DNA of 64,000 nt from Amphiscolops sp. MND2022. Its lineage: Eukaryota. The notes below the pieces were generated by a model. The model searched no databases. It was not told the DNA's origin and saw only the letters and a program-made list of their open reading frames with translations. How positions within the stretch are numbered: the first letter of the stretch is position 1; each line of letters opens with the position of its first letter. Where the stretch lies: contig OZ076421.1 of the NCBI GenBank assembly GCA_964187785.1, positions 19,158,001-19,222,000 on the forward strand. Direction: 5' to 3'. A program made the position numbers and the translations under genes. Shown one piece after another: positions 2,046-29,509 of this stretch.

Positions 2046-3584
2046 CGTGATAATCCTCTAAGGACTCTGCATCAGATTCTTCGTCTGAGTGTATTGTTAC
2101 ATCTACATCTGATTCAGCCCGAAACATAGGCTTAGCAGGAAGTCTCAAGTCTTTCATTTTAGAAGCTCTTAGAGGATGATCTTCATTTTCTGAATCTGAA
2201 TTTTTGTTTAATGATGCGTGAACTCCTATAGACTTGTTAGTTTTAGACCCCGACGCTTGGGGTTCCTGATTTTCATTAAGCTCTGATCTTGGGTTTGTTA
2301 CTGTCGATGCACTTTTGTTTGACTTGATTTCTTTCAGAATTGCTTCAAACTTGTTGTCTATTTCTTCTCTCATTCTCTCGATTCTATCATTATTCTTTTG
2401 TTCTATAATCTAGGTCCAAGCTTGGATTTCATTACTAATTTGGCTTGGTTCAACCATTGGGTTTTCTGAGACGTTTTCACCTAAATTCTCCTGTAAAACT
2501 GAGTTAAAATTAGTCAAAGTCTCATTACCTTGAGCTGACGTATCTACTTGTGCCTCAATTGGGTTTCTGTCTGGAGACGGTGTTTCTAGCCTTCTAGATC
2601 TCCTGTTTCTCTTATTCCCCATCTTTCTCAAGTGAAAACGATCGATTTGCAGGGTCAAGAATTTGAATTGAAGACAAATAGTCAAAGGAAATCAATTTGA
2701 AATGTTCAAAGATCCCAAAATGTAGAACAAAGGTTGCAATAGTTATCAGAGAACAAACTGGTTCTGAAGAAAGTTATATCAGTTGTGTTCGCTCCTTTAT
2801 TCCTCTCGAAAGTACAAAATCACAAAAAGATGACACGCAATTTTACAAGCATCATTCCTAGGAAAACTAATAATAGCACTTCGTCAGAATACCGTCATCC
2901 TATTTATATCTCATGAGTCATTTTCCATGACATTCAGAAATGATAACGAGGCTTATAAGACCCTAGAAAGGTGTTAAACAACGATATATCATGGACTTAT
3001 ACTACTGTATATGGAAAAGCAAAGTTAATTCTTCATATTAAAGCAAGCATAGCGAAAAACGTATTGTACCGAGTACTCATTGTTCCTCAAACCGCAGGAT
3101 GACGTATAATGAAAAATGCATAGTGTTGAGTAAATGTCACCGCTCAAACCGCATGGTGACGTATAATGAAAGTTAGAAAGATGCATAGTGTCGAGTAAAT
3201 GTCACTGCTCAAACCGCATAGTGACGTATAGTGAAAGTCAGAAAGATGCATATGCGCATAGTACCGCATACTCATTAGCACTCAAAACGCACAATGTCGT
3301 ATACAATTGGTACTGCTTGATTAAAATGAACTACTAGCACTGCATTAAGATCATCAGGAGTAACTAAAAACATCATTAAATCCTCTTAAGGTTTGGCAAA
3401 TCATTTTAAGACATCAGTTTTACAAAATAAATCAACTAAATGACCCTGATTACAACAAATATTTACAAAACAAACAAACTATATGACTTGCAAATGAGTC
3501 CTTGGGTTTTGGAAGTTTTTAACAAGCGTTGTTTGTTTTCTTACTGGTGCACACCGGACCCATCGCAACGCTGTGGCCGCGACA
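2046..3584 (-). repeat. 3' LTR of element 1
   Basis: Direct repeat of 16609-18147 (offset 14563). On the element strand it begins TGTCGCGG and ends ATTATCACG (CG instead of CA). I found ~5 transitions versus the 5' LTR. Confidence 0.96.
3087..3270 (+). repeat. Three 58-65 bp tandem units in the LTR, each carrying CCGCATAGTGACGTATA-like motifs (copy in the 5' LTR at ~17650-17833)
   Basis: CTCAAACCGCA(G/T)..TGACGTATA.TGAAA units at ~3087, ~3144 and ~3209, plus GCGCATAGTACCGCATA at 3254. Confidence 0.85.
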
Positions 3585-4596
3585 GTCCTGCATTTTTGAA
3601 GATAAACAACGCAGCTTCAAAACCATCTATGAAGGCTCTAGAACGCACCCCGCGATCCCTGACTGTTTCCTCGTTGTAAGCGGTAGCGCCAAGATAGTCC
3701 CCCAATGTTTCCAGTGCGACTTGATCAAAGGTACGGCCACACCAGTCACAATATCCGGAGACGTTTGGCATAACTGTTGGGAACAATCTGAAGTTTTGTC
3801 TCTCATTGCCTGGTATCATAAGGATATTAGTACTATGTAGTATGTTGAATGGAAATCCAGCTTGGACTACTTGGTGGAATTGACCATTGAAGTTGGTGGG
3901 GACAATTCCCATGTTTCTAGGGGGCAGATGTATCACTACTGGTGTGATGTCATTTGCAACAGGGTGTGTTAATTCTTCTGGGATGAACGCGGCCTGCGGA
4001 TAATCGTCTTCTAGTTCATATGTTGGTACGTCAGTAGCCCCTCCTGTATTTGTATCTACTGTCTGTACTTGATGAGAATTAGGGACATTCTGTACATAAT
4101 TCGAAGGGTAAGTCGGCACTGGTCTAACAGTTTCATTTGGTGGTTGCAATGAGACCCTTGGTGTGGGCAGTATTGCTGCAGTTGGCCGACCATAATTATT
4201 AAGCTGTACTCTGGGTTCTGTGACAATTGCTACTGGAGAAATACCTGGTCCTTCGAACTCTGAATCAATGAAAGACAGCGGAGATGCTGGAGAAGAGGAA
4301 GGACCCTCCTCTATCAACTCCATGATTTCCCTTTCGATGTGGGTTCCAGCAGTGTCGATGGATTCTTGTTGTCCCATGCAATTTGAAGGGGGAAACAAAG
4401 AAGCAGTTGCAGAGCCCACGAAAGCTGTCATCATGTTTGATCCCATTGTATTGACCCTGAACCTTTCGTCCAGCTGGGCAATATTGCCAGGTTCAACAAT
4501 GAACTCCTCCCCAGATTCACTGGAGATGTCTATCACCCCAGGGGAGATGGGTGAGTAGCCCAGATCCTCGTCGAGATTGAATTGTAGTGAGTCCAT
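3541..4596 (-). CDS. Accessory ORF of element 1 (351 aa, unknown function; acidic/Pro-rich N-terminus, C-terminal CDWC-containing region)
   Basis: Uninterrupted ATG-initiated 351-codon ORF on the gag-pol strand. The stop lies 44 nt inside the 3' LTR. No signal peptide or transmembrane segment is visible. Confidence 0.75.
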   Translation of the reverse strand: MDSLQFNLDEDLGYSPISPGVIDISSESGEEFIVEPGNIAQLDERFRVNTMGSNMMTAFVGSATASLFPPSNCMGQQESIDTAGTHIEREIMELIEEGPSSSPASPLSFIDSEFEGPGISPVAIVTEPRVQLNNYGRPTAAILPTPRVSLQPPNETVRPVPTYPSNYVQNVPNSHQVQTVDTNTGGATDVPTYELEDDYPQAAFIPEELTHPVANDITPVVIHLPPRNMGIVPTNFNGQFHQVVQAGFPFNILHSTNILMIPGNERQNFRLFPTVMPNVSGYCDWCGRTFDQVALETLGDYLGATAYNEETVRDRGVRSRAFIDGFEAALFIFKNAGLSRPQRCDGSGVHQ

Positions 4597-5474
4597 TTTC
4601 CAGGTTTTAGTTGGAAATTTATAGGTGAACAGAAATAGAGTTTGAAATTGAAAGCAACTGAATCACAGTTTAATATAGACCATATGGTGATGGAGTTTCC
4701 CTCACTTTTCGTTTTCAGTGGAAAACCCGCGGAAAAATTGAGTGTCATGATTTCAGGTCCCTAAACACCCTTATAAGGGTTTCCACCTAGACTCATATCA
4801 TGAGTTCCTTTTACAGTTGATCATAAACAACTTCCATAAAAGGTAACAAGTTTAGCACTTCAACTGATTTCCTTTTATCATCACCCTTCTTAACATTTCA
4901 CCAGTATTTAAATCGTACATAAACAAATTTGACTTGATATTAGGGATGCTGAAACAAAATACTTTCATGAAAATATTCAATAAAGTAATTCAGAATCAAT
5001 TTATTTGATTTTACATGACTATTTTATAAAAGGAAAAGGATGTTAATAAACGTGTTCCAATCTAATCTAAGGTCCGTTAGTGAGTTGAATTTTATCATTA
5101 GGAGAGACATCCAGTAATGTTAGTCCTGCATTTAAAATGCAAGTGCAGTTAATTAATGTTCCGGGTGAATTCCAGTATCTCTTGGTAAATGATTTATGGG
5201 TCTTAGAAAGCGCCAACAGTTCAAATTGTTACATACATATTGGTTCCAAATGAGCATTGGTATCACAGGCTAAACATCATTAAAAAGGGTAACTAAGCAA
5301 GTATACAGTATATCAATATTGCCACTCAACTTTCAGTTGTGGTAAACACACAGTTTCTTCAGTTCCATTACGTAATATCACTCCATTTGCCCATTCTTGT
5401 TGATCTACGGTGTTAATTCATCTCTGTCATGCATACAGCGAAAACCGCTGAATGTCGAGTATACGTCAATGCTC

Positions 5475-5593
5475 GATCCGCATACTGCCGTATATCCATC
5501 ATTGGTAGATCCGCATACTGCCGCATAATTTAAATCAGCAATACGCATATTGTCGAGTAGTCGTTAGTGGTAGATCCGCATACTGCCGCATAC
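5475..5593 (+). repeat. Three copies of GATCCGCATACTGCCG(T/C)ATA in the divergent intergenic region of the cargo
   Basis: Copies at 5475, 5508 and 5573; same core as the LTR motif. Confidence 0.85.
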
Positions 5594-6036
5594 TCTCGCT
5601 TTCTAATTCATTCCATTCAGCATACATGTATACCAACGTTGTTGGCAGAAGTCAGATGTGTCAATCAATTACGCTGGCAGACGTAATTGACATTTGAACA
5701 GCCAATCATATTGCAGTATTCTCTACGCATATTTGCGCACAATTGTTCCACTTGCTCTTTTGCCTTTGTCTATTGCATTAACGTTACGCCACGCCTTTTA
5801 CTGTTTCTTTTGAATTTTCAAGTCTCTTACCAGTTCATTTAGTCTGTTCAGTTAAAGTTCTAGTATATTAAACACAATCTTCCAAATCTTGGATTCTTCA
5901 TCTTTAGTTCCCCTTTTATCTGTTTTCAATTTCCTTACTCTGATCTATTGTATTTTCTCCTCGTTCACTTCTGGAACAAATACTTTGAGCTTGCATCAGA
6001 ATTTTCCTGAATTACTCCCTGGTTCTGTAAAAAAGA

Positions 6037-9000
6037 ATGGATTCACCACAAGAGGGAAGCCCCGGAGGGAAAAAAAGATCCCGGAAAAGTTATGATCCTT
6101 TGCAACGTGACGACTTCTGGCACAGTGATCCGCCGCCTGAGACGTCATCCCGTAAGTTCAACATATTTCGTTTTAATTCTGTTTCATTTTGACTTGTTTT
6201 GAATTTGGTTGATTTGCAAAGCTGGCCAGGCTAGCAAAAATAAAATGACAAGATTATTATCTTTGTCAAGTTCAAATTTTTGAAACGTTTCCGCTTCCAA
6301 TTTTTAAACAACATCCGTTCCAATTTTATTTCCTGTCCCCGCGTCCGGTTCAAGGCAGTTAAAAACGGTTATTGCTTGTGAAATTTGTTCTTTTGTTAAT
6401 CAACAGATCAATTGTTTCAGTTGAACAAGGATCGTCCCAGAACGTCCAAACCACTCCAAACAACTCTCCTGCCAAAGTCTACACATCTTTGAACGTTGTG
6501 ACTCCACAGACTTCTAAGGTTACAGAGGAAGTGGATATCCCCAATACCCCAACTTTGCAGATCAACGAAGAAGTAGCAGGTGAGCCACCGAGTGGACATA
6601 CATCCACAGAGCCTCCTGAAGTTACTTCCCAGGGTAACCCAAGTCAAAAAGGGGATTTAGCTTCACGAAGTAATTCGCCGCCATTTGTGAACGTTACCCC
6701 AACGAAAGCTATGAATGAGCCAATGACGACATTCCCTCAAGGGGTACTTGATGATTTCATCACGCAGGGTAATTCTCAGATACATTCTCTTCAGTTTGAA
6801 CAGTACGTCACTCCTAGTGAGGATGGTGCAACAGGATTCACCACCGGGCAGATACCCGAAACCACGGTTTCTCTTAGCACGGCTAATGACCAAGGACAAA
6901 CAACTGGTCAGGACACAGAAGGCTTGGGTAACATTCCCAGATCAGAGTTCCCCAATGTTAGTGTTACTCGACAGGAGGTCTTATTTCTCCACAATTTCCT
7001 TGGGAGGATCCCACAAGCCTTCATCACCGGAGAAGAGACTGGATGTGGAGACACTATGGCACTTACTTTGATAGATGATGTACCGCAATCTGCTTTATTA
7101 ACTACATCAAGCCAAGAAGAAGCACTTGTCCAATCTACTTCAAGAACTGCGCCGACTTACTCAGAGCATAATCTCCCTGAAGTACGGGGGAAACGACGCC
7201 GCCCTAGATACTCCTTAACTGGTAGTATGTTTAAAAGACACCCAGTTTTGAAATTCTCTGCCACAGGTCCACTGGATCAAGAGTTATCACCTTTCAAGTG
7301 GTGGTGTAGGGTGTGCCGTGTTGAATTATCGTTAATGAGTCGTGGGAGTCTGGAACTGATATCCCATTACAGGTCCGAATCTCACCTCGTAAGGGAACAC
7401 CGAATCCGAATGGAGATTCCAGGAATGCCCCTTTACGACAAAGACGAACATGAATTGCTTGGAATTTCACTGCAGGAAGCCAAAAAGAAGGCGAAGGACA
7501 CCTACCCAATTCCTCCTCAATTGGATACGTACCGACCTCTAGTGGGACAAGATTCAGTACCCGATTTTAGTGCTTTCACAACCCCAACTGAGAAGATATT
7601 TTCGCAGATAAACATTCTGGAATTTGGGTTAAGGCACGGAGGTAACGTCGCCAGTTTGACCGGAATGTATGACGAGTTGGTCAGACTTACAGCAAGTGAT
7701 CGGCTATCGTTTCAAAACTGGAGCAATGAACGTCTTTTCGTAAGTTTCTTTGTGAATTTTTTTTAACACACAATGGTTTAACCATATTCTTTCTCCCTCA
7801 TTAAAGGTTTCAATTACCTTGAAGTTACACTATAAGTTGAAGGTTTCACCATTTTCCAATACCTTAACACTTTCTTTGTTTGCAGGGTATCATAGTCTAC
7901 ATGTTCCGAGAACTCATGGACTACTGTGTACGATCTATATCTTCTTCGGGGTACTATTCATTGGCCATACAACATACTCCGGTTGCCACATACGTTATTC
8001 TTTGCTTTTGGGCCGAGAATGTGCTGTATCGAGTGTGCATAGGGGGCGCCCCTCGGGGAATGTTACTACCAAGGAAGGTCCTTTCTCTTGTGGCTTCCTT
8101 TCTCAGTCTGTTCGAAACATTCCCAAATTGTGTATCCCTCATTGGATTCAGTGACAAATTAAATGATTGTCTATCGTCTTGTTTGCCCGGATTAAAGCCC
8201 CCTTCGACTGTCAACCCATTTGGACCGAACGAATTTGAGCGAACATTAGCAGGCCCTACCGCTCAGGTCATAGAACGACACGATTTCCGTTCTATCTTGG
8301 ATTATATATTGATGAAATTGCGGACTGCGCTAGACAGAGATTGGCTGGAGAAATTACCCCTTCTGCACAAAGTAGGTTTTCAACTTTGGTTTTTTTCTTT
8401 TCCATTGTGATGTTTTGTACATCTTCCCCTATTTTGTTTAGTGTGTGACAAACTTGAGCTATTCCCTTTCTGAAGCTTCTTCTTTGATTGAGCAGCTTTC
8501 CAACAACTGGAATCACGTGCAGGATCACCTAGAACAAGTTGCCCGCCTTCCTATCTATCGATACCATATGAGAGAGGTAGGTATTATTATCCCAGCTCCT
8601 TCCATTGTAATCTGAATCCATTTCTTAATCTTTTCCTTTTCAGCCCAATACGCTAGACGAGTGTTTTCGTCTAGACACAGCTTATCTGGCCCGTCTATTC
8701 ATTATCAGATGTGTCCTTGACCATTGTTAGTCAATTTATCTTTATATTATAACAGCGGTTTCATCTTTTGTTACGTTGTTTTCCTCTTTTTGGAGTAATG
8801 TACTATAAGCACCATCTCATTCCAAAACTTCGAACATCAGGAGTGTCATTCATTTAGCTCATCATAAGTGACACGTGCTTTTTGTTTTCTTCTGAATAAT
8901 CACGAGTAATCATCAGTTCTCAATCCGCATAATTGCGTATGACCAATCGTATTTGCTCAGAACTTCCAAATCCAGCTGCATTGCTGATTCCGCATAGTGA

Positions 9001-10381
9001 CGTATAATCACTACTACTCGTTCCGCATAGTGACGCATAGTCACTACTACACATTCCGCATAGTGCCGCATAGTCAATATCTCCTACTCAACATAGTGTC
9101 GAGTATTCATTGTTCTCGGAACCGCGTAAAGCCGTATAGCCCTGGTGTTTATACATTGAGCTATATGATGTGTTTAATCAAGCTTATCAAAAGCGTGTAC
9201 TATGCGTGATTAGTTCTCTTCTTCATGAAAGCATGCGTGATTTCTATAATTGATGATTTTTGTGTGTTTTAGATACTTCGGCATTTTCGGACATACAGAA
9301 ACGACTTGATGGAGGGTTCCGCATATACAACCAATTCGCGGTTTTTATCTACAGTCAGATGCAGAACATTCTTCCTGACAGCATTTTGGGAAATATCTCG
9401 GAATGGGATTCTTATCTTAATTTGGACCTGGATTCAACTAATTTGCCGTTTAAAACAGCAGACGACTTCGTCTTGAATGAGGATTTTCACCGTTTGGTGT
9501 ATTCAAGTAAACTCCCTCGGCCAAGCAAATTCATTGACCAGTCAGTGAGTTTCTGCAAGGCTTATTGCAAACAGTTGGTGGGTCACGGGATTGTAAAGTC
9601 AAAGTTGTTGCGGGGACTCTCTGCTTTTGATTCCTCGGTGATGCTCGAGAGCCCAGAAGACGTGTATGTTGATGCGATTGAAAAGTTGTCTTCACATTTT
9701 GTTTCTACCGGACTATTCTCTTCTAGTGACAAGGTGAAGCAGATAAGCCAGTATCGTTCCTTCGTAACCAAGCTGAGGACAAGTCCCGTACCAGAGCATG
9801 ATGATTGGATTCAGTTTGTCGTTGAACATTATGAAATCCAGTGTCGACCCGAGTTGATGCGACTATTCAAACATTCGTGTCTTTGTTTAGTTCCATTCGT
9901 GGAAATACCGCCACCATTCAAGGTACCTATGCCAGATCTTGAGTCGGATAAACATACGTTTGAATCTTGTGTGTTTAGTCTTCAGGTAGCATATCAGACT
10001 GTGCCACACGTCTCCAGCTTATTTCGAAATTCCAAGGCGATCAGCCGTGCTTTTCGCCTGTTGGGACGTGGGACTGATTTGTTATTGGACAAAAAGTTCT
10101 CGGTTTGGAATTTCCTGAAGGGAAGCAATGCCCGGAAAACTTCTCTCCAAGGTAAATTGGAAACTGGTTACCGACAAGCTGTGCTACGTGCTGAGAAACC
10201 TACCGTTTCCTCTACTTCAACAACTCCAAGTGTGAGTCGCCGCAGCAGTGTACATAGTTCCCCGTCCCCTGATCCTTCATTGGGTACACTTAATGTTCGT
10301 CTTAGTCGTTGCTCAGAGCCGACCCAAGAGGGCACTTCAAAGAGAGTGGTTGCTAAAGCTCCGAAAAGCAAGAAAAACTGA
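6037..10381 (+). CDS. Antisense six-exon cargo gene, 1081 aa: disordered N-terminus, C2H2/BED-TTF-like zinc finger, probable inactive hAT-transposase-like body. Exons 6037-6151, 6421-7739, 7886-8371, 8442-8576, 8644-8725, 9273-10381
   Basis: All introns are GT-AG (GTAAGT, GTAAGT, GTAGGT, GTAGGT, GTTAGT; pyrimidine tract + AG) with matching phases 1,0,0,0,1. The joined CDS is 3246 nt with no stop. Zn finger WWCRVC-x16-HYRSESH; basic NLS-like RGKRRRPR. The hAT resemblance is my pattern recognition, not a search result. Confidence 0.85.
8924..9138 (+). repeat. CCGCATAGTG(A/C)CG(T/C)ATA motif cluster in intron 5 of the cargo gene
   Basis: Near-perfect copies at 8990, 9023 and 9056; weaker ones at ~8924 and ~9121. 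Confidence 0.85.
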
Positions 10382-10599
10382 CTGTTGTTTGCATTATCTT
10401 GTTGTATTTATAATCTTCTTTTAGTTTTCTGATTGTTGAGTTACTCTGTATCCTGTGTATTTATTTGTTAAAGGAATCGGAGAACAGGATGAAGAAACGC
10501 ACTTGTAGTGCTGATTTGAAAAAGGAAGGATAAAAAAGAGAGTTTCTTCTGTATTTGTTTTCTGAGTACTAGTGATGAGTCAGGGATTGTCAGTTGTTT

Positions 10600-13500
10600 T
10601 TAGTATCTATAAGTGTCAGAGTAATTTGGGTTGGGGTTAGGACGTAGGTTGTATTTTTCACCACGGGTATTTATGGGTTCTTCTTGCAATGGGGTATTTT
10701 GGGAGTTTTCTGGAGTTTTTTGAGTATCATCATCTGTTGAAATATTTACATCTTTTTGGGTTTTTTGGGTATTGTTATCATCATCATTTGATTGTTGTGG
10801 GATTTCATCAGCATGATTTCCGTGATTTTGATCTGGTTCAGTGGTCTGATCCACTGGGCTCCCCCCACTATTTTTTGAAGATACTGGGGAGGGTGGGCGG
10901 CTATTGTCGGGTATTTGAATTGGGACATATTCGGTATCCTCAGTATTGTGTATTGCATCTGAGGGAATGTCATCAAATGGATTTGCTCCAAAATTCGTGT
11001 TCCATGATTGGGCATATAGATCATCATTTGCTATAGTCATTTGATCATCTTTTTGCCAGTCGGTTTCGCGAACAAAAATGTCTGCTAAAGGGGCCTGCGG
11101 TGTGAATTTCCGCAAACGAATCCGATGTAGTAGTTGGGTTTTATTTGTGCCAAGTCTCCTCACAATGTAGTAATTGTTAGGGAGCACTTTTTCAACTTTA
11201 TAAGGTCCACACCATCTGAATTCTCGGAATGGTATTTTCGTTGCTTGTGTATCGGCTTTTGGATTAAGAATATAGCAGTAATCTGTTGTCTCCAACGGGG
11301 CTGCTTTTGCTTTTCTATCGTAGTAGGCCTTGTATTTAAGGTAAGATTGCATGATATTCTTTTTGGTTTGGTCTAAAAGTGTTCTCATGCGCTTTTGATT
11401 TTCTTCTGCAATGTCAGTTTGTGGTTGATACCTCGGATTTGGATTGTATCCAAGTTTGTAGTCAAGGATATTGTGTGGTATGCGGCCATGGAAAACTCGT
11501 GAGGGTTCACAACCGAGTGATGCATGGTATGTTGTGTTATGATTAAGGACTGCTAGAGGAAGATATTTGTGCCAGTTGTTCCTGAATTCGCCTGTGGCGG
11601 CTTTTAGGTGTGTTTTAACTGAGGCATGGGTTCTTTCTAAGAGTCCTATGGTTTGTGCATGTTTCATTGTGGCATGTTTCATTTCGATTCCAAGCACTGC
11701 CGCAATTTCATGAGTGACTTGTGCGTTGAATTGAGTGCCTAGATCCGTGATTATAGTTGTTGGAAGGTAGGTGTGTTTGCATAAGATATCCATTATGACT
11801 TTTGAAACTGCTGTTGCGGTAATTCGAGTCGCAGGATAGGCAAACAAATACCTTGAGAAGACATCTATTGCTGTGATGATGTGATCGTAGCCTTCGCTTG
11901 GGGGGAGGTTTGGCAAAATATCCATCTGTAAGATGTCTTCCGGTCCAAGGTCCCATTCGGGACAATTAAGGAGTTCGGTTCTGAGGAGATCATTGTTGAT
12001 ACGTTTTGTTTGTATACAAAACTGACAATTACTGACCCATTTCTTTATGTATTTGGCCATACATGGGTAGTAATATTTTTGACCTGTTTCTTGAATCATC
12101 TTGGTAATTCCTGGATGGTTTGAGTTATGTCCATGGAGGGCTTGAAGTAGTTCTTCAAGAAGTTGGATTGGTAAGAGGATTTGATAATGCGAGATCATTC
12201 CTGTATCTGTATAGTATTTGCGTGTGAGAACTTCGTGTTTAATCTCGATTCGTGTTATGTTTTGTAAGTAGTGTTGATATCTGAAATCGGAAGCTAATTC
12301 GTTTTCATCAAACGGTTCGCCTTCTATTTTGGCTCTCAGGTTTCGAAGGACTATGTCATTGTTCTGTTCAAGGCGTATCCTCGCATTGTCCTTGAAGTGT
12401 GCAGAGGAGCAGGAGATCAATCCGGATGTGGGTTTGTGAAATTGCTGTAATTCAGAGACGTCGTTCTCTGGGTCATTGTGAGGTTCGTTTTGTGCTTGAT
12501 TGCGAGTGTTTTGTTTTTCTTCCCAAAGTTGATTTTCATCGATTTCTTCATCAGGAAGGATGTAAATTTGTTCTTCTTCGACAATTCCAGTTGATTGTAT
12601 ATTCACTTCAATTGCTTTTGTGTGAATATCGTTGCGAATTGTCATTTCGAGCTTCTCGGTTGGGTTACTTTCGGTTCTAGATAAGAAATCGGCGGCTGTG
12701 TTCATCGATCCAGCTACATGGGCGATTACAAAATTGTATTGTAATACATAATCGCATGCATTCCAAAGCGCTGGAGGAATCATTTTCGTTTGAAAAAACC
12801 GGGTTACAGACCGATTATCCGTGAACACGATGATAGGGAAGGTACTCCCCCACATGAGGTGTCCAAACTCTACGAATGCAAAATATATTGAGAGGAATTC
12901 TTTTGCATAGATTGACATTTTCGTTTGTGTTGGATTGAACGTTTTTGATCCAAACGCAATGGGTGCGTAGGTTTTTCGTTTGGATTGAAGCTTCTGATTG
13001 GGATCGTCTTCAATCATGACGGCATATCCTGCAGCTGTGAAGCTTGCATCGGACATGACTATGAGTTGTTTGTCTTTCAAGGGTTGTTTCAACGCGAGTT
13101 GGCAGGAATTTTCCAAAAGTTGATTGAGGTTTGTAAAGTCTTCAACCAAGTTTGTAGGAACATAAAATTTGGAGGTTTCTTTGAGGAGTTTGAAAAACGG
13201 GGTGAGTCGTTCTGAAAGGCGAGGTATATAGTTTCGGTAATAATTCAAGAATCCGATATACCTTTGTAGTGCCTTTTTCGATTTTGGAAATTTGAGTTTT
13301 GCCAAAAAATCTTTCACTTTGTCAGCTTGAGGGGCAACTCCATTTGGTGTGATTGTGCGTCCCAAAAAGTCGACTTGTTTAACTCCGAAATGACATTTCG
13401 ACATGGAGAGTTTCAGTCCGGCATTCTGGATGCATTCAAAAACAGTTTTGATGTTTATACACAATTGTCTTGTGTCGTTTGCTGCTATGCCGATATCATC

Positions 13501-15491
13501 GACATATTGGGCACATTGATCTGCTTTAATTGCTCTGTCTAGGTATTCTCTCATGAAGCTTGAAAATGCGGAGAGAGATCGACTGAGACCCTGGGCAAGG
13601 CGTCGATAAGCAAATGTTCTGCTTGCAAAGTTAAACGCGAGCATCTGGATAGATTGGTAGTCGGCCATTTGGAGGCAGTGGTAAGCCTGGGAGCAATCCA
13701 GTTTGCAGAAAAGCTTTTTCCCTGCCATGTGTTGGGCTGCATCAGATAGGGTGCTTACCGGGTGGTTATTATTGGCGTAATCTTCAGTGATAAGATTATT
13801 GATTTTCCGGAGGTCAACTAGGACTCTAAGGCGCCCGTTTGGTTTGCGTTGTGCAAAAATCGGGCTTGCATATTTGGAAAACGGTAGAGTTGTGATTATA
13901 CCGTACTTGTGTAGAAGCGCAAGTTCTACAGTGATGTCATCTTTGAGGTTGATTGGAGTTGACAGACTCTGGCTGTAAGCTGGTCTGTCGTCATTGGGTG
14001 TTAATTTGACTTTGAATTCGCGGTTTTTACCGATATCAAAGCGATGTCTGGCGAAAATGTCGTGGAATTCGACCAGAATCTCTTCAATCTCTTGTCGTTC
14101 TTCTGAACTAAGTGTTGTATCTGTCCAGTCGAAATTTGAGAGGAATGTTTTCCTGGATGTTTCATTATCATGTGGATTCAGTTTTTCGAGTTCTTTTAAC
14201 TCAAGAAGTTCATTGTATATACGTTGTTGTATTGGAGTATATGTTGCGGGATCGCCTGGGTCGTCTGGGGTAGGAAACCAGTACGATTCTTGTTCAGAAT
14301 TTGGTTGTGGTACTTTGAGGAGTTCGTTGATGTAGACTTCGGTGGTTTCTTCATGTTGTATCATAAACGATAGTACTGCTGGGTCTACTGGTTGGATGTG
14401 TTTGATTTGTTCTGGGGTCAGAATTTTGAAATCCGCTAAATGGGTGTCAATGGTTATTGTATATGGCAATTCTGAAAAATTGATGATCTGGTAGTCGATA
14501 GCATTATTATTAACTGTGCTAAGTGATGCTGTAATAAAAATACTATCGTGGTTTTCAAATTGTTGTGATGGAGTGACTATTCCGGTTGCATTATGGTCCA
14601 TCAGGTGAGGCATTTTGCTTGCTATAGCGAGTGTTTCGCCTGGCCTGAGTGTGTAGGTATTTTCTGCAAACAATGGTGTTGCTTGCCGTATTGCTGTTTG
14701 GGTATCGGGTTTCAGTTGCATTGAGAGGTAAGGAAAGGTTAAGATTCCTTGTGTGACATCGAAAATTGCATTGTTTCGGCGAAGGAAACACAATCCGATG
14801 AGCGGGTTTGGTAGAGTTTTCATGATGATGAAGTTTTCCTTTAACATGAAGTCTGCGACTTCGAATTCTAGTAATACTGTACCAATGGGGACTTCTAGTT
14901 GTCCATTTGCCACCATAATTTGAAAGTTTGGTGGAGGACCAGTTTCTTTTATCGCATCGTTTGCGAGCAATTTGATTTTGTTGAGGTCTTGTTCGGAGAT
15001 TGCACTTGTGAGAGCTCCTGTGTCAATAAGACAATCAAGTGTGAGGTTTTGGAAGTCCATTGGAATGTAGTACATGTGTCGTTTGCGCTTCAATGTCAAG
15101 GATGTTGAAATTGGTATGACAAGTTGCGTTCTTTGTCAAATTGTAGGTGTTCAGCTAGGTCTTCATTTAGAAGGGGTTGTTTTTGATCATTGCAAGAAGT
15201 TTTGATAGTGACATGATTTTTAATAGGTGAATCGTGGTGAATATTGAGGTCTGGGTCAATTTCAGGATGGGTTTGTTGTTTTATGAAGTAGTTGTCTGGT
15301 GCATCTCTCAAGAGTTCGTAGTATTGATCTGGAGAGGTGCTGGGAGTTTCAGATTGAACAGGAGTTGGAGGAGTAGATTCAGGTTCAGTAGTCAGTCGTT
15401 TAAGTTGAATATTTATTGTTTCCACTTGATGCTGCCAGTCATCTTGTGGTTTTATTTCGGCGTTTGTGTTGTTAAGGCGTGGCGTTTCTAG
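10600..15491 (-). CDS. pol: Gypsy Pol polyprotein (aspartic protease, reverse transcriptase, RNase H, integrase); one apparent frameshift lesion at ~15100-15115
   Basis: LIDTGA (PR); YVDD (RT); MSDAS...YAKE (RNase H); HGHNSNH..CQFC zinc finger; QMDIL/ITDLG/ERTH DDE triad; GPY motif. The upstream part (15096-15491) is in a different frame from 10600-15099. Confidence 0.95.
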
Positions 15492-17185
15492 TTTAAATCC
15501 TTCGAAGAGGATTGTTGGAGTTGTTCCATTTTAGGTTTGATGGGTTTTTTGGCTTGTTTGTAATTTTCGATTACTTTTTTCTGGGCGTCTGTGAGGTTCC
15601 ATTTGGGTGGGCGATTTTCCATATTCTCGCCAAAGTAGCAATTTTCTTCAGTGTGTCCGGGGGTGTTACAATTTTCGCATTTGTCTGCATCTGGATCTTC
15701 CTGAAGTTAACGTCGTTTGGCTAATTTGGGGCAATCAGTCATCATATGGCCCTCTTCTTTACAATAACGGCATTGGCCATCTTTGAGGGTCTTGTTTGGG
15801 ACTGATTTTGGCGTTTGTGATTTGGTTTTGTCTGTTTGTTTTTTGTTAGTGTTGTCTGTTTTGTGTTCTTTTTTAGTTGCGGTCATCTGTGTTTTGACCA
15901 GCGATTCATCGGATTCCAATCCATTGAGTTCCATCTCTCGTTCGAGATGTTTGACAATTTGGCTGTATGTGCCGTTTTCAAGGTATGCTTGGTTAATGGA
16001 CTTTTTGAGTTGGGGAGGCATTTTAGCGTAGAGTAAATTCTCTATCATTTGGTGCGCATTAGTCCCGAACGCTTTTTCAGCGCTTTCCTCAAGTTCTTCA
16101 AGGAAATCCGGGAGTTTTTGATTTTCGGGGTCAAAGAAGAGTCTATTGAATCTGTGTTTGGCAGATGCGCTGGACTCCGGTTTTACGTATTTTCGTCGGA
16201 AAACTTTGAGAATGTCTTCTAAGGTTGTTGTGGGCGTTCTTTGTATGTTTTTAAACGTTTTCAGTGCCAGACCTCTCAGGTGGGCGTGGAAATGATTGAT
16301 TTTCATGTCTTCTGTAAGATTCGGTTGCATTCTGAGTGTTGTGTGGAACAAGTCCTCAAAATACTCAAATTTTTCATTTTTCTCATTTTTTCCATTAAAT
16401 GTGAGTGTGTTTTTTGGGTGAAAGAATGTTTGTGATTCATTTTTGTTTGCTAATTTTTCTATTGCCAGGGCAATTTGATTGACTGGGTCAAGGGGTGTTG
16501 CGGATGAAGTTGTTGTGTTCTGGGCTGCGTGGGATCCTGTTGTGTCGTTTAGAGACTGTGGGTTTTGCGAACTCTGTCTATGGAGTTGTCGGTTAGCTCC
16601 TGTCACCATGTGATAATCCTCTAAGGACTCTGCATCAGATTCTTCGTCTGAGTGTATTGTTACATCTACATCTGATTCAGCCCGAAACATAGGCTTAACA
16701 GGAAGTCTCAAGTCTTTCATTTTAGAAGCTCTTAGAGGATGATCTTCATTTTCTGAATCTGAATTTTCGTTTAATGATGCGTGAACTCCTATAGACTTGT
16801 TAGTTTTAGACCCCGACGCTTGGGGTTCCTGATTTTCATTAAGCTCTGATCTTGGGTTTGTTACTGTCGATGCACTTTTGTTTGACTTGATTTCTTTCAG
16901 AATTGCTTCAAACTTGTTGTCTATTTCTTCTCTCATTCTCTCGATTCTATCATTATTCTTTTGTTCTATAATCTAGGTCCAAGCTTGGATTTCATTACTA
17001 ATTTGGCTTGGTTCAACCATTGGGTTTTCTGAGACGTTTTCACCTAAATTCTCCTGTAAAACTGAGTTAAAATTAGTCAAAGTCTCATTACCTTGAGCTG
17101 ACGTATCTACTTGTGCCTCAATTGGGTTTCTGTCTGGAGACGGTGTTTCTAGCCTTCTAGATCTCCTGTTTCTCTTATTCCCCAT
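15488..17185 (-). CDS. gag: Gag (capsid + two CCHC zinc knuckles) with in-frame TAG at 16973-16975 and TAA at 15707-15709
   Basis: ORFs 16973-17248 and 15707-16936 and the reading past 15707 share one frame. Knuckles CRYCKEEGHMMTDC and, after the TAA, CENCNTPGHTEENC. The natural stop is TAG at 15488-15490. Confidence 0.85.
15491..15497 (-). promoter_or_regulatory. -1 programmed ribosomal frameshift slippery site U UUA AAC at the gag/pol junction
   Basis: GAT TTA AAC TAG ends gag. The -1 frame (LETPRLNNT...) is open into the pol N-terminal region. It fits the X XXY YYZ consensus in the correct phase. Confidence 0.85.
16591..16608 (-). promoter_or_regulatory. Primer-binding site (PBS) of element 1
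   Basis: TGGTGACAGGAGCTAACC directly after the LTR-terminal CA. The TGG start is complementary to tRNA 3' CCA. The primer tRNA was not identified. Confidence 0.8.
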
Positions 17186-18147
17186 CTTTCTCAAGTGAAA
17201 ACGATCGATTTGCAGGGTCAAGAATTTGAATTGAAGACAAATAGTCAAAGGAAATCAATTTGAAATGTTCAAAGATCCCAAAATGTAGAACAAAGGTTGC
17301 AATAGTTATCAGAGAACAAACTGGTTCTGAAGAAAGTTATATCAGTTGTGTTCGCTCCTTTATTCCTCTCGAAAGTACAAAATCACAAAAAGATGACACG
17401 CAATTTTACAAGCATCATTCCTAGGAAAACTAATAATAGCACTTCGTCAGAATACCGTCATCCTATTTATATCTCATGAGTCACTTTCCATGACATTCAG
17501 AAATGATAACGAGGCTTATAAGACCCTAGAAAGGTGTTAAACAACGATATATCATGGACTTATACTACTGTATATGGAAAAGCAAAGTTAATTCTTCATA
17601 TTAAAGCAAGCATAGCGAAAAACGTATTGTACCGAGTACTCATTGTTCCTCAAACCGCAGGATGACGTATAATGAAAAATGCATAGTGTTGAGTAAATGT
17701 CACCGCTCAAACCGCATGGTGACGTATAATGAAAGTTAGAAAGATGCATAGTGTCGAGTAAATGTCACTGCTCAAACCGCATAGTGACGTATAGTGAAAG
17801 TCAGAAAGATGCATATGCGCATAGTACCGCATACTCATTAGCACTCAAAACGCACAATGTCGTATACAATTGGTACTGCTTGATTAAAATGAACTACTAG
17901 CACTGCATTAAGATCATCAGGAGTAACTAAAAACATCATTAAATCCTCTTAAGGTTTGGCAAATCATTTTAAGACATCAGTTTTACAAAATAAATCAACT
18001 AAATGACCCTGATTACAACAAATATTTACAAAACAAACAAACTACATGACTTGCAAATGAGTCCTTGGGTTTTGGAAGTTTTTAACAAGCGTTGTTTGTT
18101 TTCTTACTGGTGCACACCGGACCCATCGCAACGCTGTGGCCGCGACA
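16609..18147 (-). repeat. 5' LTR of element 1
   Basis: TGTCGCGG...ATTATCACA on the minus strand (canonical TG...CA), followed immediately by the PBS. Confidence 0.96.
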
Positions 18148-19244
18148 GCGGATTTCGCTGCATGCATTGGATTCCACTATCAAACACCCTAAACATGCGA
18201 ACCTAGTAGAAACTTCGAAGTACGCCTCGCTGCTTACGTTTGCTTGCTCGTTGAAGCAAGTTTAGGATTTTATGATACGTCACTGGTTTCTCAACATTCG
18301 AATACTTTCAATATATTTTAAATAGGAAAATACATAAATTTAAGAATCGCCACGAACCTTTTTTCGACGTCGTTATTAGTCATACCGTTTAATTGGGAGT
18401 AGAGAAATTGTTCACGGAGCTTTCGCTGTTTTCGTTGTTTTGATCAAAATAATCACTCCATGCCAATTATTTTCTAACCAGATTTGTTGGTCTCTGTGGA
18501 AATTTTCGCTCTGCTTCGTATCATCTGAAAGAACACTGAACAAAAAGTGGTTGAAATTTTTGTAAACAGTGCATGTATTTCTCGCCAGGGCAGAAAATGC
18601 AAATTTTAGGGGGAGTTTGTTTCCTCTACAGTCAGAAGTCAAAGTATTTGCATCAGTGACTCTCTCTTGATGCTGCAAGAGTAGAAAATACAGTGACGGT
18701 AAACATCCCTAGATAATATTTGGCGTCTTTCTTCTTTCACAGAATTTAATGCAGTGTTTGAAAAATCTGCCACCGCGGTTAGTTGCTTTAGCAAGATAGC
18801 ATATTAGCAGTAGAAATGGATATTCCAGAACGCGCATTGGAATTAAATATTCAAAAAATGGAATACAAAATGTTTGGACTGGTCTAGTTTATCATGATTT
18901 TACTTTTTGATCTCTCACTCGAAACAGAAGATAGCGCGCAGTACCAAGTAACGCCATTATACATGAACAACTGAACAGACTGATTGTTTTATTGAAAAGC
19001 CCAATGGCACTGCTTCGTACTCTTGTCCTTCCAAAAAAGGTTAAATACTATCAAAGAGTACGAAATGCTTATAAAACTTTGTAAAATTCAGGTACTTCTT
19101 CCGTTTGTTTCCAACTTGAGGCTGCAAGAGAAGGTCCGTTGAAAAAATGTTCATAAATGCATGTCCTGAATATGATGGAATTACAGAAATTTCTTATACG
19201 TTTCGTTATCAGAGAATGGAAAACATTACTCATGTTGAGCTTTC

Positions 19245-21129: not shown

Positions 21130-21361
21130 TCACAAAATGTCTAGACATCGCTACAGGTCATTTCGTTTTCATTTTCATAGATTTTACGATTCGTTTGCAT
21201 CTGAGCGCAGGACTCATAGGCCACTTTTAAAGAACTTAGTGAAGATCTTCACTGAGTTCTTTAAAAGTGGCCTATGAGTCCTGCGCTCAGATGCAAACGA
21301 ATCGTAAAATCATCGAAAATGAGAACGAAATGACTTGTAGCGATGTCTAGACATTTTGTGA
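21130..21361. repeat. Long near-perfect palindrome, 116-bp arms, no loop
   Basis: Centre GAAGA|TCTTC at 21245/21246; the arms read as reverse complements out to TCACAAAATG...CATTTTGTGA. Confidence 0.95.
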
Positions 21362-23315: not shown

Positions 23316-26300
23316 AAAACATAAAAAGTTTGCATTTAAAACACTTTTGTAGGTACTGGTTTTCATACTTATGTGTATTTAGTACACTTATTCAACTAAA
23401 GAAACCCATGTAACCGTTGAACCCCAATACGGTAAAAAAAAACTAGAACAGTTTGATGTTTTTAGAGGTTGTTGCTGTTGCTTAAATAATTGTTTTATAG
23501 TTAGTTACATGAAAATTGACTTTGATATATAGGAAATTTGCGACTGGCTATAAGATTAGAAACAACGTATACAAGAAGCTACATGTGTTACTGTTACCTC
23601 AGAAACACAAGCAAAGCAAAATTGCCCAGTACTTGGAAACGCTTGAACTCAAGTTGGCATCTAGAATTTAACTTTGTCCGTTGTACATGTAGGAAGAGAA
23701 CCATATATTTCTTCTGGACAATGAAGAACATTCTTTTCTAACGTACAAAAACCAGGAAAGCTCTATGGCAAAAGTTATATCAAAAGCATAACTAAATTTG
23801 GCCGACAGAGTGGTGAATCTCGCTCCAGGAGGACGTTATGAGTGTACATGTCTCGAAATTAAATGGCAGATCTGCCGGTGTTTCTTCTTTCACCAAGACC
23901 TTTTATGTTGATGAGAGACTAGTCTCGTCTCATTGACAATCAGCATTGAAAATGCTCGTGGAAAAAGTTTCATCACGAAAAGCAGTTGAGCAGTAGTGTC
24001 ACTGCAATCGACTACGAACTCGAGGATGCAATTTGAAAAGAATTTAATAATCAAGACTGTATTCTGTAACGGTATCTGATTTATGGCAATAGGTATTTAT
24101 TTGTCATCTGACTTCAGTTTGGCAAGTTGTTGGAAAATACCTAATTCACAGTTTTCGCACTTTAGTTTCCTCACACTATTCAAGGGCATTAAGTTAATTA
24201 GTGCATCTCAATCTACCACACTTCCCTCTCTATTGAGGAAACATCAGGGGAAAGTAATTACATTTGAAATGTTATGCTGTAGGTTTCATTACATCATGTT
24301 TCTCAGATATACCATTGTACAATAATCAAGGTTAAATGTAATGTTTCAACCAATAACATAAAACTGCTAAATTTAGCAAAACAAAGGCTACTACAGCAAT
24401 TAGGATACAACACGAACAGTTGATTTTAAAAGTTCCATTGTTTAAAATGTTTAATTGTTTTCGGTAAGCCTTTGTTTTGGTTTAGTGATTTCATAGACGC
24501 TAGGGAGACTGTCTTCTTCCTGGCTAGATGTGGCTTCTCTTTTGGAGATCATGATGTTGTTCCCCAGGCGGTCAGGCTTCTTTGTAACGCGGCTTGATGC
24601 TCTTTTCTTCTCCCATTTGTCTGTTCCTTAAATGGGAGCACTTTGATTTCCACTTGTTGCGGGAACAGTAGTTGGAGTGATTTGAGTTTCTCGTTCATCT
24701 TCTTTATTGTTTTCCGTGTTCTTTTCAGCTTCTTGTTGTTCTATTGCCTGTTCAGCTTGTCTTTTTTCGTCTTCTTCGCTTGTTTCATTCGTTTTGATTT
24801 TTATTGGGATTGGCTATCTTTTTATTTCGTCCATTGAGTCTGTTTCATTCGCTGTCTGCATTCATTTGGAAGCTTTTCCCATTTCGACTCTTTTGTTGTC
24901 GTTTGCCCTTTTTCTGGATTTTGCAGATTCTTTATTTTTGGCCAATTGTTGTTGCTGCTGCATTGGTGTACTTCTGCCTCCTTGTTTTGCCATGTCACGT
25001 CTCTTTTCGAGTATGTCACTTTCATCCCTGTTTTTGGCAAAATCGAAATTGTATGTTCGGACTGGCCTACTACCGCTCCTTCCACTTTTTTAAAAGCTCC
25101 TTCGAGCTTTGTCCCCCTCATTCGCTCGCGCACCAAAATTGTTGAGTCTGCCTCGCTGGAATCATCTGGTTCCATCTCGATGAGCGGGTCTCTCTCAAAA
25201 AGACATTTTTCTACCATCACTGATTTTAGCGTGTTTGGTTTTCGTCCTACTTAACTTTCAAAAGCTGATTTTCCATCCGCGCCTTTTTCTGTTCTTAGTG
25301 CAAATAGGATGCTTAAAATTTCATTTTTATCTCGCTCAACTACTATTTTTTCGATCGTCCTCAATCTCTCATTTCTCTCATTTATGGTTCTTATCATTCT
25401 TTCCCCTTTTCCATTTCACCGTGGAAAACAAAAAAAGACTGCATTCCAAACACTTTTGTAGGTACTGGTTTTCTTTTTTATGTATATTTAGTACACTTAT
25501 TCAACTAAAGAAACCCATGTAATCATTGAACCCCCATACAGTAAAAAACTAGAACAGTTTGTTGTTTTTAGAGGTTGTTGCTGTTGCTTAAATAAATAAC
25601 TGTTTTATAGTTAGTTACATGATTATTGACTTTGATATATAGGAAATTTGCGACTGGCTATAAGATTAGAAACTGTTACCACGTATACAAGAAGCTACAT
25701 GTGTTACTGTTACCTCAGAAACACAAGCAAAGCAAAATTGCCCAGTACTTGGAAACGCTTGAACTCAAGTTGGCATCTAGAATTTAACTTTGTTCGTTGT
25801 ACATGTAGGAAGAGAACCATATATTTCTTCTGGACAATGAAGAACATTCTTTTCTAACGTACAAAAACCAGGAAAGCTCTATGGCAAAAGTTATATCAAA
25901 AGCATAACTAAATTTGGCCGACAGAGTGGCGAATCTCGCTCCAGGAGCACGTTATGAGTGTACATGTCTCGAAATTAAATGGCAGATCTGCCGGTGTTTC
26001 TTCTTTCACCAAGACATTTTATGTTGATGAGAGACTAGTCTCGTCTCATTGACAATCAGCATTGAAAATGCTCGTGGAAAAAGTTTCATCGCGAAAAGCA
26101 GTTGAGCAGTAGTGTCCCTGCAATCGACTACGAACTCGAGGATGCAATTTGAAAAGAATTTAATAATCAAGACTGTATTCTGTAACGGTATTCTGATTTA
26201 CGGCAATAGGTATTTATTTGTCATCTGACTTCAGTTTGGCAAGTTGTTGGAAAATACCTAATTCACAGTTTTCGCACTTTAGTTTCCTCACACTATTCAA

Positions 26301-29300: not shown

Positions 29301-29509
29301 CATCACTGATGTTAGCGTGTTTGGTTTTCTTCCTACTTAACTTTCAAAGGCTGATTTTCCATCCGCTCCTTTTTCTGTTCTTAGTGCAAATAGGATGTTT
29401 AAAACTTCATTTTTATCTCGCTCAACTACTATTTTTTGTTCGTCCTCAATCTCTCATTTCTCTCATTTATAGTTCTTATCATTCTTTCCCCTTTTCCGTT
29501 TCCCCTGTG
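23316..29509. repeat. Tandem triplication of a ~2.0-2.1-kb unit (host flank + TSD + 3' LTR + integrase tail of element 2)
   Basis: Units start at ~23316, ~25425 and ~27394 (AAAAC(A)TAAAAAG..GCATT..AAACACTTTTGTAGG). Unit 2 has an internal ~150-bp deletion. LTR copies are at 24003-24220, 26119-26337 and 28088-28306. Confidence 0.93.

What the first reader, a model, noticed from the sequence alone, without database searches (positions are those of the whole stretch)
3087..9138. One CGCATA-n4-CGYATA motif is arrayed in every non-coding part of element 1: a candidate binding-site array for its own zinc-finger protein
Seen: CCGCATA(G/C)TG(A/C)CG(T/C)ATA has two CpG-containing half-sites exactly 10 bp (one helical turn) apart. 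It occurs in both LTRs (3092, 3149, 3214, 3254 and copies at +14563), three times in the internal divergent intergenic region (5475-5593) and 3-5 times in intron 5 (8924-9138), always in the same orientation. I did not notice it outside the element. Established: Arabidopsis VANDAL transposons encode VANC proteins that bind short motifs arrayed in their own non-coding regions and counter silencing. Inference: this may be an analogous, independently evolved protein-plus-site system (anti-silencing or autoregulation) in an animal LTR element. Dimeric hAT-type proteins bind repeated subterminal sites, which fits the geometry.
Basis: partly seen in the sequence, partly recalled or inferred. Interest (0 to 1): 0.85.

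Follow-up and report, generated by a model that had tools for sequence, protein, structure and literature searches.

The report
Retrotransposon with its own regulator sites
A jumping gene carries three regularly spaced arrays of one short DNA word and a gene for a probably disarmed DNA-binding protein taken from another kind of jumping gene, which suggests, untested, that it switches itself on.

Summary
The motif is real and specific to the element. The exact 16-mer has 10 hits, all on the + strand and all inside a recent Ty3/Gypsy element (2046-18147); 100 resampled windows gave none. It is better described as three arrays of a 33-bp unit (LTR U3 8 units, divergent intergenic 5, intron 5 7). 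Across arrays the 16-bp core is 71% identical and the spacers 37%. It is not in every non-coding part: 3 of 8.

The element's antisense six-exon gene (1081 aa, open frame) is a family component: its exons share contigs with sibling gag and orphan-ORF copies. Weak but concordant matches (zf-BED, hAT C-terminal domain, Hermes ranked first or second in two fold searches) point to a hAT transposase derivative. By a recalled motif alignment it lacks the DDE residues.

Best model (about 0.45): this protein binds the arrays and keeps the element's promoters active, like plant VANC or TnpA. Binding, direction of effect, host identity and family-wide conservation of the motif are untested. A host factor, repression or an RNA-level role remain open. 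My 10 paper searches found no such combination in an LTR retrotransposon.

The parts
2046..18147 (-). Ty3/Gypsy LTR retrotransposon, 16.1 kb, recent insertion with a 5-bp target-site duplication (2041-2045 and 18148-18152)
   Evidence: LTR pair 99.7% identical, 5 mismatches in 1539 bp; ends and TSD; domains
2046..3584 (-). 3' LTR (1539 bp)
16609..18147 (-). 5' LTR (1539 bp). TATAAA at 17471, AATAAA at 17364; the gag N-terminus is encoded inside it; the PBS begins TGG immediately downstream on the - strand
   Evidence: U3/R/U5 limits inferred from these signals only
3060..3303 (+). Array 1 (inferred U3 of the 3' LTR): 8 units at 3060, 3093, 3117, 3150, 3182, 3215, 3255, 3288
17623..17866 (+). 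Copy of array 1 in the 5' LTR, about 150-400 bp upstream of the TATAAA on the - strand
5446..5592 (+). Array 2 in the divergent intergenic region: 5 units at 5446, 5479, 5512, 5544, 5577
8893..9138 (+). Array 3 in intron 5: 7 units at 8893, 8926, 8991, 9024, 9057, 9090, 9123; lattice slot 8958 is empty
6037..10381 (+). Antisense accessory gene, 6 exons (6037-6151, 6421-7739, 7886-8371, 8442-8576, 8644-8725, 9273-10381), 1081 aa, probably hAT-transposase-derived
   Evidence: open frame; homologues; hAT matches
7167..7739 (+). Conserved domain in exon 2: basic KRRRPR stretch, CxxC..H..H zinc finger (BED-like), helical region. It follows a low-complexity N-terminal part (56% S/T/P/Q/N/G, 12% D/E, 4% K/R in the first 245 aa of exon 2)
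   Evidence: (pLDDT 87.5)
9273..10381 (+). Exon 6: all-helical region resembling the hAT insertion and C-terminal domains
3541..4596 (-). Orphan sense ORF, 351 aa, ending inside the 3' LTR; no Pfam match; 47 members in its 90% cluster
10600..15135 (-). pol: protease, RT, RNase H, integrase
15491..17221 (-). gag region (capsid, CCHC). Siblings encode 577 aa in one frame over this span; this copy has in-frame stops near 16973 and 15707

Best explanation
The three arrays are binding-site arrays for the element's own antisense-encoded protein, a hAT transposase derivative that has kept its zinc-finger DNA-binding part and lost catalysis.

Shown: the arrays, the open spliced gene, and its linkage to the family.

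Inferred: an ancestral Gypsy element took up a hAT gene in antisense orientation, so its introns survive the RNA intermediate. A 33-bp unit holding the bipartite site was copied, always in one orientation as template switching would give, into U3, the divergent promoter region and the longest intron, and selection kept the 16-bp core. Oligomers of the protein bind adjacent half-sites and units, and its low-complexity N-terminus helps open chromatin or blocks silencing. That keeps the LTR promoter and the protein's own promoter active (positive feedback) and acts in trans on all family copies, including ones like this with an interrupted gag.
For: Motif restricted to the element, 0 chance hits. 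Core identity between arrays 0.71 against spacer 0.37 and random 0.26; first CpG kept in 16 of 20 units, second in 19 of 20. Arrays lie upstream of the LTR TATAAA and between two divergent ATGs.

The gene is open with GT-AG introns and has many relatives: 238 clusters for exon 2, 103 for exon 6, 96 for exon 3. Zinc ligands are conserved in 49-53 of 50-55 rows. Linkage by shared contig length: 5 of 14 listed gag siblings and 7 of 13 orphan-ORF contigs coincide with listed accessory-gene siblings (listings are partial, 15 of 36 and 15 of 20).

hAT signals come in the right order: zf-BED in 4 of 55 relatives, best E 1.6e-4; Foldseek ranks ZBED1 BED and Hermes first and second for exon 2; for exon 6 the Atlas gives Dimer_Tnp_hAT clusters at 0.92-0.93 and VIA-align ranks Hermes first of 48,161 (Z 5.2, rmsd 8.4, 180 aligned).

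Precedent: VANC arrays (PMC5735166); transposase-derived activators lacking catalytic residues (10.64898/2026.08.24.746577); hAT BED proteins prefer CGG/CGC and match subterminal sites (PMC8097297); cooperative BED binding depends on exact phasing (PMC10368747).
Against: There are no binding data. Every hAT match is below significance on its own: Foldseek E 0.75 and 1.2; Z 5.2 is tied with unrelated helical rows; Atlas shared features are 155-156 of 256, under the 170 typical of same-family hits; exon 3 gave no Atlas, Pfam or PDB hit. VIA-align matched the finger best to RNA-binding TUT4/TUT1 and spliceosomal fingers (Z 4.7 or less). The Hermes cooperative site is a quasi-palindrome, whereas this core is a direct repeat. 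33 bp is not a whole number of helical turns. The methylation signal is weak. Array 3 has no obvious promoter next to it. Only one family copy was seen as DNA.
Confidence: 0.45

Rival explanations
1. The arrays are enhancers for a host transcription factor (for example a germline or stress factor), as ONSEN uses heat-shock factors. The accessory protein does something else.
For: Tandem factor sites in U3 are ordinary for LTR elements (established knowledge; ONSEN in PMC12859917 passage). 5 of 20 units contain the bZIP-type half-site TGACG (the bZIP label is recalled).
Against: 15 of 20 units lack TGACG while keeping the core. The motif is missing from the second LTR element and other repeats in the window; 1 of 95,766 outside positions scores >=12. 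A 16-bp bipartite site on a 33-bp lattice, repeated in an intron of the zinc-finger gene itself, is more than one host factor needs (inference).
Confidence: 0.2
2. The element's protein binds the arrays but represses or insulates: copy-number control, or shielding of neighbouring host DNA.
For: Same anatomy as the best model. Antisense regulators can be inhibitory, and antisense RNA itself can silence (PMC7264820).
Against: The family is recently expanded, with 36 near-identical exon-6 members that are 97.6-99.4% identical to this copy in 15 of 15 compared. The N-terminal region is acidic-leaning and low-complexity. Published transposase-derived regulators activate.
Confidence: 0.13
3. The arrays act in RNA. 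All three fall in the 3' part of the full-length genomic transcript in one orientation, and the finger binds them for export, packaging or protection from splicing, like Rev/RRE.
For: Uniform orientation. The finger's best VIA-align matches are RNA-binding U1/matrin-type fingers. Two arrays fold somewhat better than shuffles on the - strand (z -2.0 and -1.8).
Against: The LTR array folds worse than shuffles (z +1.0), the + strands give z 0.6, -0.8 and -0.3, and there is no shared structure. No Rfam hit. The promoter-proximal positions fit DNA-level use. The hAT ancestry signals point to DNA binding.
Confidence: 0.1
4. The arrays are neutral: a minisatellite or LTR fragment copied within the element by template switching and now decaying.
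For: Spacers keep residual similarity (0.37 against 0.26; 6 of 13, 11 of 16 and 6 of 13 held-out spacers at p<0.05), so the arrays share an ancestor. Tandem arrays of unknown function occur in about half of Retand clusters (PMC11963269).
Against: The core is far better kept than the spacer, and the lattice is kept in three places whose flanks do not align (one weak alignment, z 2.9, among 56 comparisons). CpGs are retained although CpG transitions are in excess elsewhere.
Confidence: 0.09
5. The + strand gene and two of the arrays are a nested hAT DNA transposon with its subterminal repeats, present by chance in this copy.
For: hAT elements carry subterminal repeats bound by BED domains.
Against: The motif is also in both LTRs. 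No inverted-repeat pair with an 8-bp duplication flanks the gene (31 weak 12-mer candidates, none with 6 or more of 8 TSD matches). Gene, orphan ORF and gag co-occur on many contigs. The catalytic acidic residues appear absent.
Confidence: 0.03

Closest known systems
VANDAL/VANC anti-silencing system (PMC5735166; passages seen)
   Same: An element-encoded accessory protein plus a short motif accumulated as tandem repeats in introns, intergenic and terminal non-coding regions.
   Different: VANDALs are plant MuDR DNA transposons, and VANC is proposed to derive from MAIN (PMC13547354 passage). Here the host element is a Gypsy retrotransposon, the protein looks hAT-derived, the site is a 16-bp bipartite core on a 33-bp lattice, and binding and demethylation are untested.
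Spm TnpA and AtMu1 transposase as sequence-specific activators (bioRxiv 10.64898/2026.08.24.746577; abstract, passages and first part of Discussion seen)
   Same: A transposase-derived regulator, separated from catalysis, acting on motif clusters in cognate elements.
   Different: There the regulator stays within its own DNA transposon or is domesticated by the host; the words LTR and retrotransposon do not occur in its main text. Here the regulator would have been taken over by a class I element.
Retand/Grande/RIRE2 antisense ORFs of plant Gypsy elements (PMC11963269 passages; PMC7264820 two of three parts)
   Same: An antisense accessory gene between pol and the 3' LTR with its own promoter, predicted DNA binding, and tandem arrays nearby; function unknown.
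   Different: They carry the TRP28 (PF04195) domain, not found here. The papers link no shared motif to LTR, promoter and intron, and the word intron is absent from the Retand paper. PMC7264820 notes their lack of similarity to other TEs.
Domesticated hAT DNA-binding proteins (ZBED, CGGBP; PMC8097297 first third read) and Hermes BED-subterminal repeat binding (PMC10368747 passages)
   Same: Zinc finger plus helical domain of hAT origin; preference for CGG/CGC words; repeated phased sites.
   Different: Those are host genes or active transposases. This one rides in a retrotransposon at 20-36 near-identical members per exon cluster.
CopiaMBD of arthropods (PMC6673714; abstract and introduction seen)
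   Same: An animal LTR retrotransposon that captured a DNA-reading domain.
   Different: A host methyl-CpG reader proposed to guide integration; no cognate site arrays in the part read.

Membership tests
Ty3/Gypsy LTR retrotransposon | Direct LTRs with TG..CA ends, short TSD and PBS | tested here: met
   1539-bp LTRs, 5-bp TSD, PBS starting TGG; the first base of the left LTR is mutated
Ty3/Gypsy LTR retrotransposon | gag, then pol in the order PR-RT-RH-INT | tested here: met
   Pfam
VANDAL/VANC | Encoded by a MuDR-type DNA transposon | tested here: not met
   The element is a Gypsy retrotransposon
VANDAL/VANC | Protein homologous to VANC/MAIN | tested here: inconclusive
   No such family in Pfam scans of exons 2, 3, 6 and relatives; the weak matches point to hAT instead
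VANDAL/VANC | Short motif accumulated as tandem repeats in terminal, intergenic and intronic non-coding DNA | tested here: met
VANDAL/VANC | The protein binds the motif in vitro and in vivo | not testable with these tools
   needs EMSA, DAP-seq or ChIP
VANDAL/VANC | Induces loss of methylation and activation of cognate copies in trans | not testable with these tools
   Indirect only: CpG transitions 20 of 255 against 52 of 1483 in five repeat pairs
hAT transposase (active) | N-terminal BED zinc finger | tested here: inconclusive
   Conserved CxxC..H..H; zf-BED in 4 of 55; Foldseek top hit is a BED domain at E 0.75; VIA-align prefers U1/matrin-type fingers. Leans BED.
hAT transposase (active) | Insertion domain and C-terminal hAT domain | tested here: inconclusive
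   Atlas 0.92-0.93 to PF05699 clusters (60% and 72% of members), 155-156 shared features; Hermes rank 1 at Z 5.2, rmsd 8.4, 180 aligned; Foldseek found nothing. Leans met.
hAT transposase (active) | DDE catalytic triad | tested here: not met
   Positions assigned by eye from recalled hAT motifs, not by a tool. First: Q here (Q in 48 of 67, D in 1). Second: G here (G 39, D 21, N 7 of 67). Both D in 1 of 67. No conserved acidic column at the expected third site among 66 rows.
hAT transposase (active) | Gene flanked by TIRs and an 8-bp TSD | tested here: not met
Retand-type antisense ORF | Antisense ORF and tandem arrays between pol and the 3' LTR | tested here: met
Retand-type antisense ORF | TRP28 (PF04195) domain | tested here: not met
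   No PF04195 hit; exons 1, 4 and 5 were not scanned

The most novel reading that the evidence does not exclude
A lineage of probably animal Gypsy retrotransposons took over a hAT DNA transposase as a spliced antisense gene, lost its catalytic residues, and rebuilt its subterminal-repeat logic as phased 33-bp arrays in U3, an internal promoter and an intron. That gives a self-encoded, sequence-specific anti-silencing activator in a class I element, which then diversified into about a hundred subfamilies, with at least two recognition-loop classes (MSRG 16 and KTKG 13 of 51) that should read different arrays.
Probability: 0.33. Interest if true: 0.9.

Novelty: new variant of a known kind. Interest (0 to 1): 0.7.

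Why it matters
In the papers I read, sequence-specific anti-silencing by a transposon-encoded protein is shown only for plant DNA transposons, and the function of antisense accessory genes in LTR retrotransposons is described as unknown. This element offers a candidate protein, a sharply defined candidate site and many natural subfamily variants, so one binding assay and one reporter assay would test whether a retrotransposon can carry its own transcription factor. It would also be a case of one class of mobile element domesticating the transposase of another.

Tried and rejected
Searches that found nothing:
- Longer relatives of exon 6: none among 3766 candidates (weak evidence).
- PDB sequence-profile searches with the three alignments: nothing at E<0.1.
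- Pfam: no informative family for exon 6 or exon 3 relatives.
- Foldseek for exon 6: nothing at E<=0.001; the VIA second look at its hits was uninformative. Atlas for exon 3: no usable hit.
- hhalign of the exon-6 profile against the hAT-like fragment at 53863-54450: probability 0.2%.
- Bacterial and archaeal genome scan for related loci: 0 of 171 candidate stretches confirmed. No DNA context for relatives was obtained, and the metagenome and viral contig collections stayed unchecked.
- Rfam: 0 hits. tRNA genes: 0.
- Homodimer prediction for the exon-2 domain gave no verdict (score 0.00, alignment not used, fold uncertain). It is not counted either way.

Ideas tested and dropped:
- Internal arrays as parts of larger LTR duplicates: flanks do not align.
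- Nested hAT element: rejected.
- CRE/bZIP site as the conserved core: only 5 of 20 units.

Corrections:
- My first exon-2 acceptor (6407) broke the frame and was corrected to 6421.
- The orphan composition was out of frame and was redone.
- The CpG test used 7 pairs, some overlapping. One search dropped 2 of them, and the excess held (2.2-fold, p=0.003), but sites within a pair are not fully independent.
- The host organism was not identified; all relatives are unnamed.
Full report
OBSERVATION. The exact pattern CGCATA-n4-CGYATA occurs 10 times in the 64-kb window, always on the + strand and always inside one element: 3215, 3255, 5479, 5512, 5577, 8991, 9024, 9057, 17778, 17818. It occurred 0 times in 100 dinucleotide-Markov resampled windows. 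'Every non-coding part' overstates it: the motif is in the LTR, the divergent intergenic region and intron 5, and absent from introns 1-4 and the pol-gene spacer. That is 3 of 8 non-coding units, the three longest.

THE FEATURE IS A 33-BP LATTICE. Reading the arrays in register gives 8 units in the LTR (3060-3303), 5 in the intergenic region (5446-5592) and 7 in intron 5 (8893-9138, one slot empty at 8958). Fourteen of 17 gaps are 32 or 33 bp; the others are 24, 40 and 65. The second half-site is CGTATA in 7, CGAGTA in 6 and CGCATA in 5 of 20 units, and its CpG is kept in 19 of 20. Between arrays the 16-bp core is 71% identical, the 17-bp spacer 37%, and the random expectation is 26%. Matrices trained on one array recover the others' units at p<1e-3 in 12 of 13, 15 of 16 and 13 of 13 cases, the two misses being the same empty slot; spacers are recovered only weakly. 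The arrays' flanks do not align. So the unit has a common ancestor, was copied to three places, and its core was kept while spacers drifted. This is the pattern of selected binding sites (inference). The units were chosen with the core in view, which favours this contrast.

THE ELEMENT. It is a Ty3/Gypsy retrotransposon on the - strand, 2046-18147, with 1539-bp LTRs differing at 5 positions, a 5-bp target duplication and a PBS starting TGG. pol has the order PR-RT-RH-INT and gag has a CCHC knuckle. Sibling gag proteins of 577 aa match 17221-15491 in one frame at 98-99%; this copy has two in-frame stops in that span. TATAAA (17471) and AATAAA (17364) on the - strand place the LTR array about 150-400 bp upstream of the likely start, in U3 (inferred). 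Between pol and the 3' LTR lie a 351-aa sense orphan ORF (3541-4596) and, diverging from it, a six-exon antisense gene (6037-10381) with an open 1081-codon frame and GT-AG introns. Antisense orientation explains why the introns survive retrotransposition (established logic).

THE GENE BELONGS TO THE FAMILY. Exon 2 has 238 relatives at the 50% cluster level, exon 6 has 103 and exon 3 has 96 at the 90% level. All are unnamed; those with sources shown are ENA records (one also MGnify), and many end at the same intron position. The clusters of this copy hold 36 (exon 6), 20 (exon 3), 47 (orphan) and 17 (gag) members. Using contig length as a handle, 5 of 14 listed gag siblings and 7 of 13 orphan contigs coincide with listed accessory-gene siblings, although only 15 members per cluster were listed. 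No inverted-repeat pair with an 8-bp duplication flanks the gene. Whether the more distant subfamilies also sit in LTR elements could not be checked.

WHAT THE PROTEIN IS. It has a low-complexity N-terminus, a basic KRRRPR stretch and a CxxC..H..H finger whose ligands are nearly invariant. Four of 55 relatives hit zf-BED (best E 1.6e-4). The confident model of this domain (pLDDT 87.5) has ZBED1's BED domain and Hermes as its top two Foldseek rows, at insignificant E-values of 0.75 and 1.2; VIA-align prefers U1/matrin-type RNA-binding fingers (Z 4.7 or less). For exon 6 (model pLDDT 67), the Atlas returns hAT dimerisation-domain clusters at 0.92-0.93 and VIA-align ranks Hermes first of 48,161 chains (Z 5.2, rmsd 8.4, 180 aligned, Hermes 368-609), tied with unrelated helical rows. 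Exon 3 gave no tool hit. By eye it follows the recalled hAT RNase H pattern, with Q at the first catalytic position (48 of 67; D in 1) and G at the second (39 of 67; D in 21), and no conserved acidic residue at the third site in exon 6. No match is significant alone, but they name the same family in the right order. I put hAT ancestry at about 0.8 and loss of catalysis, given that, at about 0.9 (judgement).

HOST CONTEXT. The host is an unidentified eukaryote; 'animal' is not established here. CpG o/e is 0.78 in the element and 0.93 outside. In five non-overlapping repeat pairs, 20 of 255 CpG sites against 52 of 1483 other C/G sites show transitions (p=0.003). This fits light CpG methylation of repeats, so anti-silencing need not mean demethylation.

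MECHANISM. Most likely (0.45) the protein binds the arrays and activates or protects the LTR promoter and its own divergent promoter, in cis and in trans. Shown: arrays, gene, linkage. Inferred: hAT origin, loss of catalysis, binding, activation. Rivals are a host factor (0.2), repression by the same protein (0.13), an RNA-level element (0.1; folding z-scores are inconsistent; no Rfam hit), neutral repeats (0.09) and a nested hAT element (0.03). The uniform orientation does not separate these, since template switching would preserve it.

COMPARISON WITH WHAT IS KNOWN. It would work like VANC, which binds motifs amplified as tandem repeats in introns, intergenic and terminal regions (PMC5735166, passages), and like TnpA or AtMu1, transposase-derived activators (10.64898/2026.08.24.746577; abstract, passages and part of the Discussion; its supplementary files were not seen). 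It is not a member of either system. Its position mirrors the antisense ORFs of plant Retand/Grande elements, whose function is unknown (PMC11963269 passages; PMC7264820 two of three parts), but it lacks TRP28. hAT BED proteins often prefer CGG/CGC words and bind phased subterminal repeats (PMC8097297 first third; PMC10368747 passages), although the Hermes cooperative site is quasi-palindromic and this one is a direct repeat. I also saw passages of PMC6431247, PMC13547354 and PMC12859917 and the abstract and introduction of PMC6673714. Ten searches of the open-access library (LTR retrotransposon + BED zinc finger + accessory, returned 0 papers) showed no LTR retrotransposon with a hAT-derived accessory gene and cognate arrays in their listings. 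Most hits were judged from titles and abstract starts, and subscription papers and Repbase were not searchable.

VERDICT. The feature is real, sharper than first described, and paired with a credible cognate protein. It is a new variant of a known kind of system, with the key link (binding) untested. Interest 0.7.

Noticed in passing
window 16609-17221 and 2046-2658, - strand: About 200 codons of gag lie inside the LTR itself, so both LTRs carry the gag N-terminus; sibling gags are 577 aa.
   Followed up: partly
window 3541-4596, - strand: Orphan 351-aa sense ORF whose last codons lie inside the 3' LTR. It has an acidic, Ser/Pro-rich first 200 aa, a CxxC near the C-terminus, no Pfam match and 47 near-identical members; a possible second regulator or partner. 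The polypurine tract before the LTR is weak.
   Followed up: partly
window 15096-15707, - strand: After the first gag zinc knuckle this copy has an in-frame stop, a second CCHC knuckle, and two frame changes before pol.
   Followed up: partly
protein P0391 (unnamed ENA record): The only one of 67 exon-3 rows with Asp at both putative catalytic positions; may be closest to the ancestral transposase.
   Followed up: no
window 3044-3059 and 5430-5445: The first unit of the LTR array and of the intergenic array are both preceded by a similar AGCGAAAA word, a further sign of common origin.
   Followed up: no
window 34949-40715: Second, older LTR element (796-bp repeats, 90.6% identical; integrase fragment at 36974-37426) with no copy of the motif.
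   Followed up: partly
window 23316-29510: Three tandem copies of an approximately 2-kb unit at 96-98% identity, with a partial fourth near 32464.
   Followed up: no
window 33987-34314 and 21130-21361: Long near-perfect palindromes (329 bp at 98.5%; 232 bp at 95%), with smaller adjacent ones.
   Followed up: no
window 53863-54450, + strand: Fragment with a hAT-like RNase H match (PF14372, E 1e-4), not detectably related to the accessory gene.
   Followed up: partly
window 47697-49877 and 55068-57971, + strand: Long exons of probable host genes: a 726-aa frame ending in a RING-H2 finger and a 967-aa low-complexity frame without a Pfam match.
   Followed up: no
window 30478-30957 and 43357-43800, - strand: Further retroelement fragments (RNase H; RT).
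   Followed up: no
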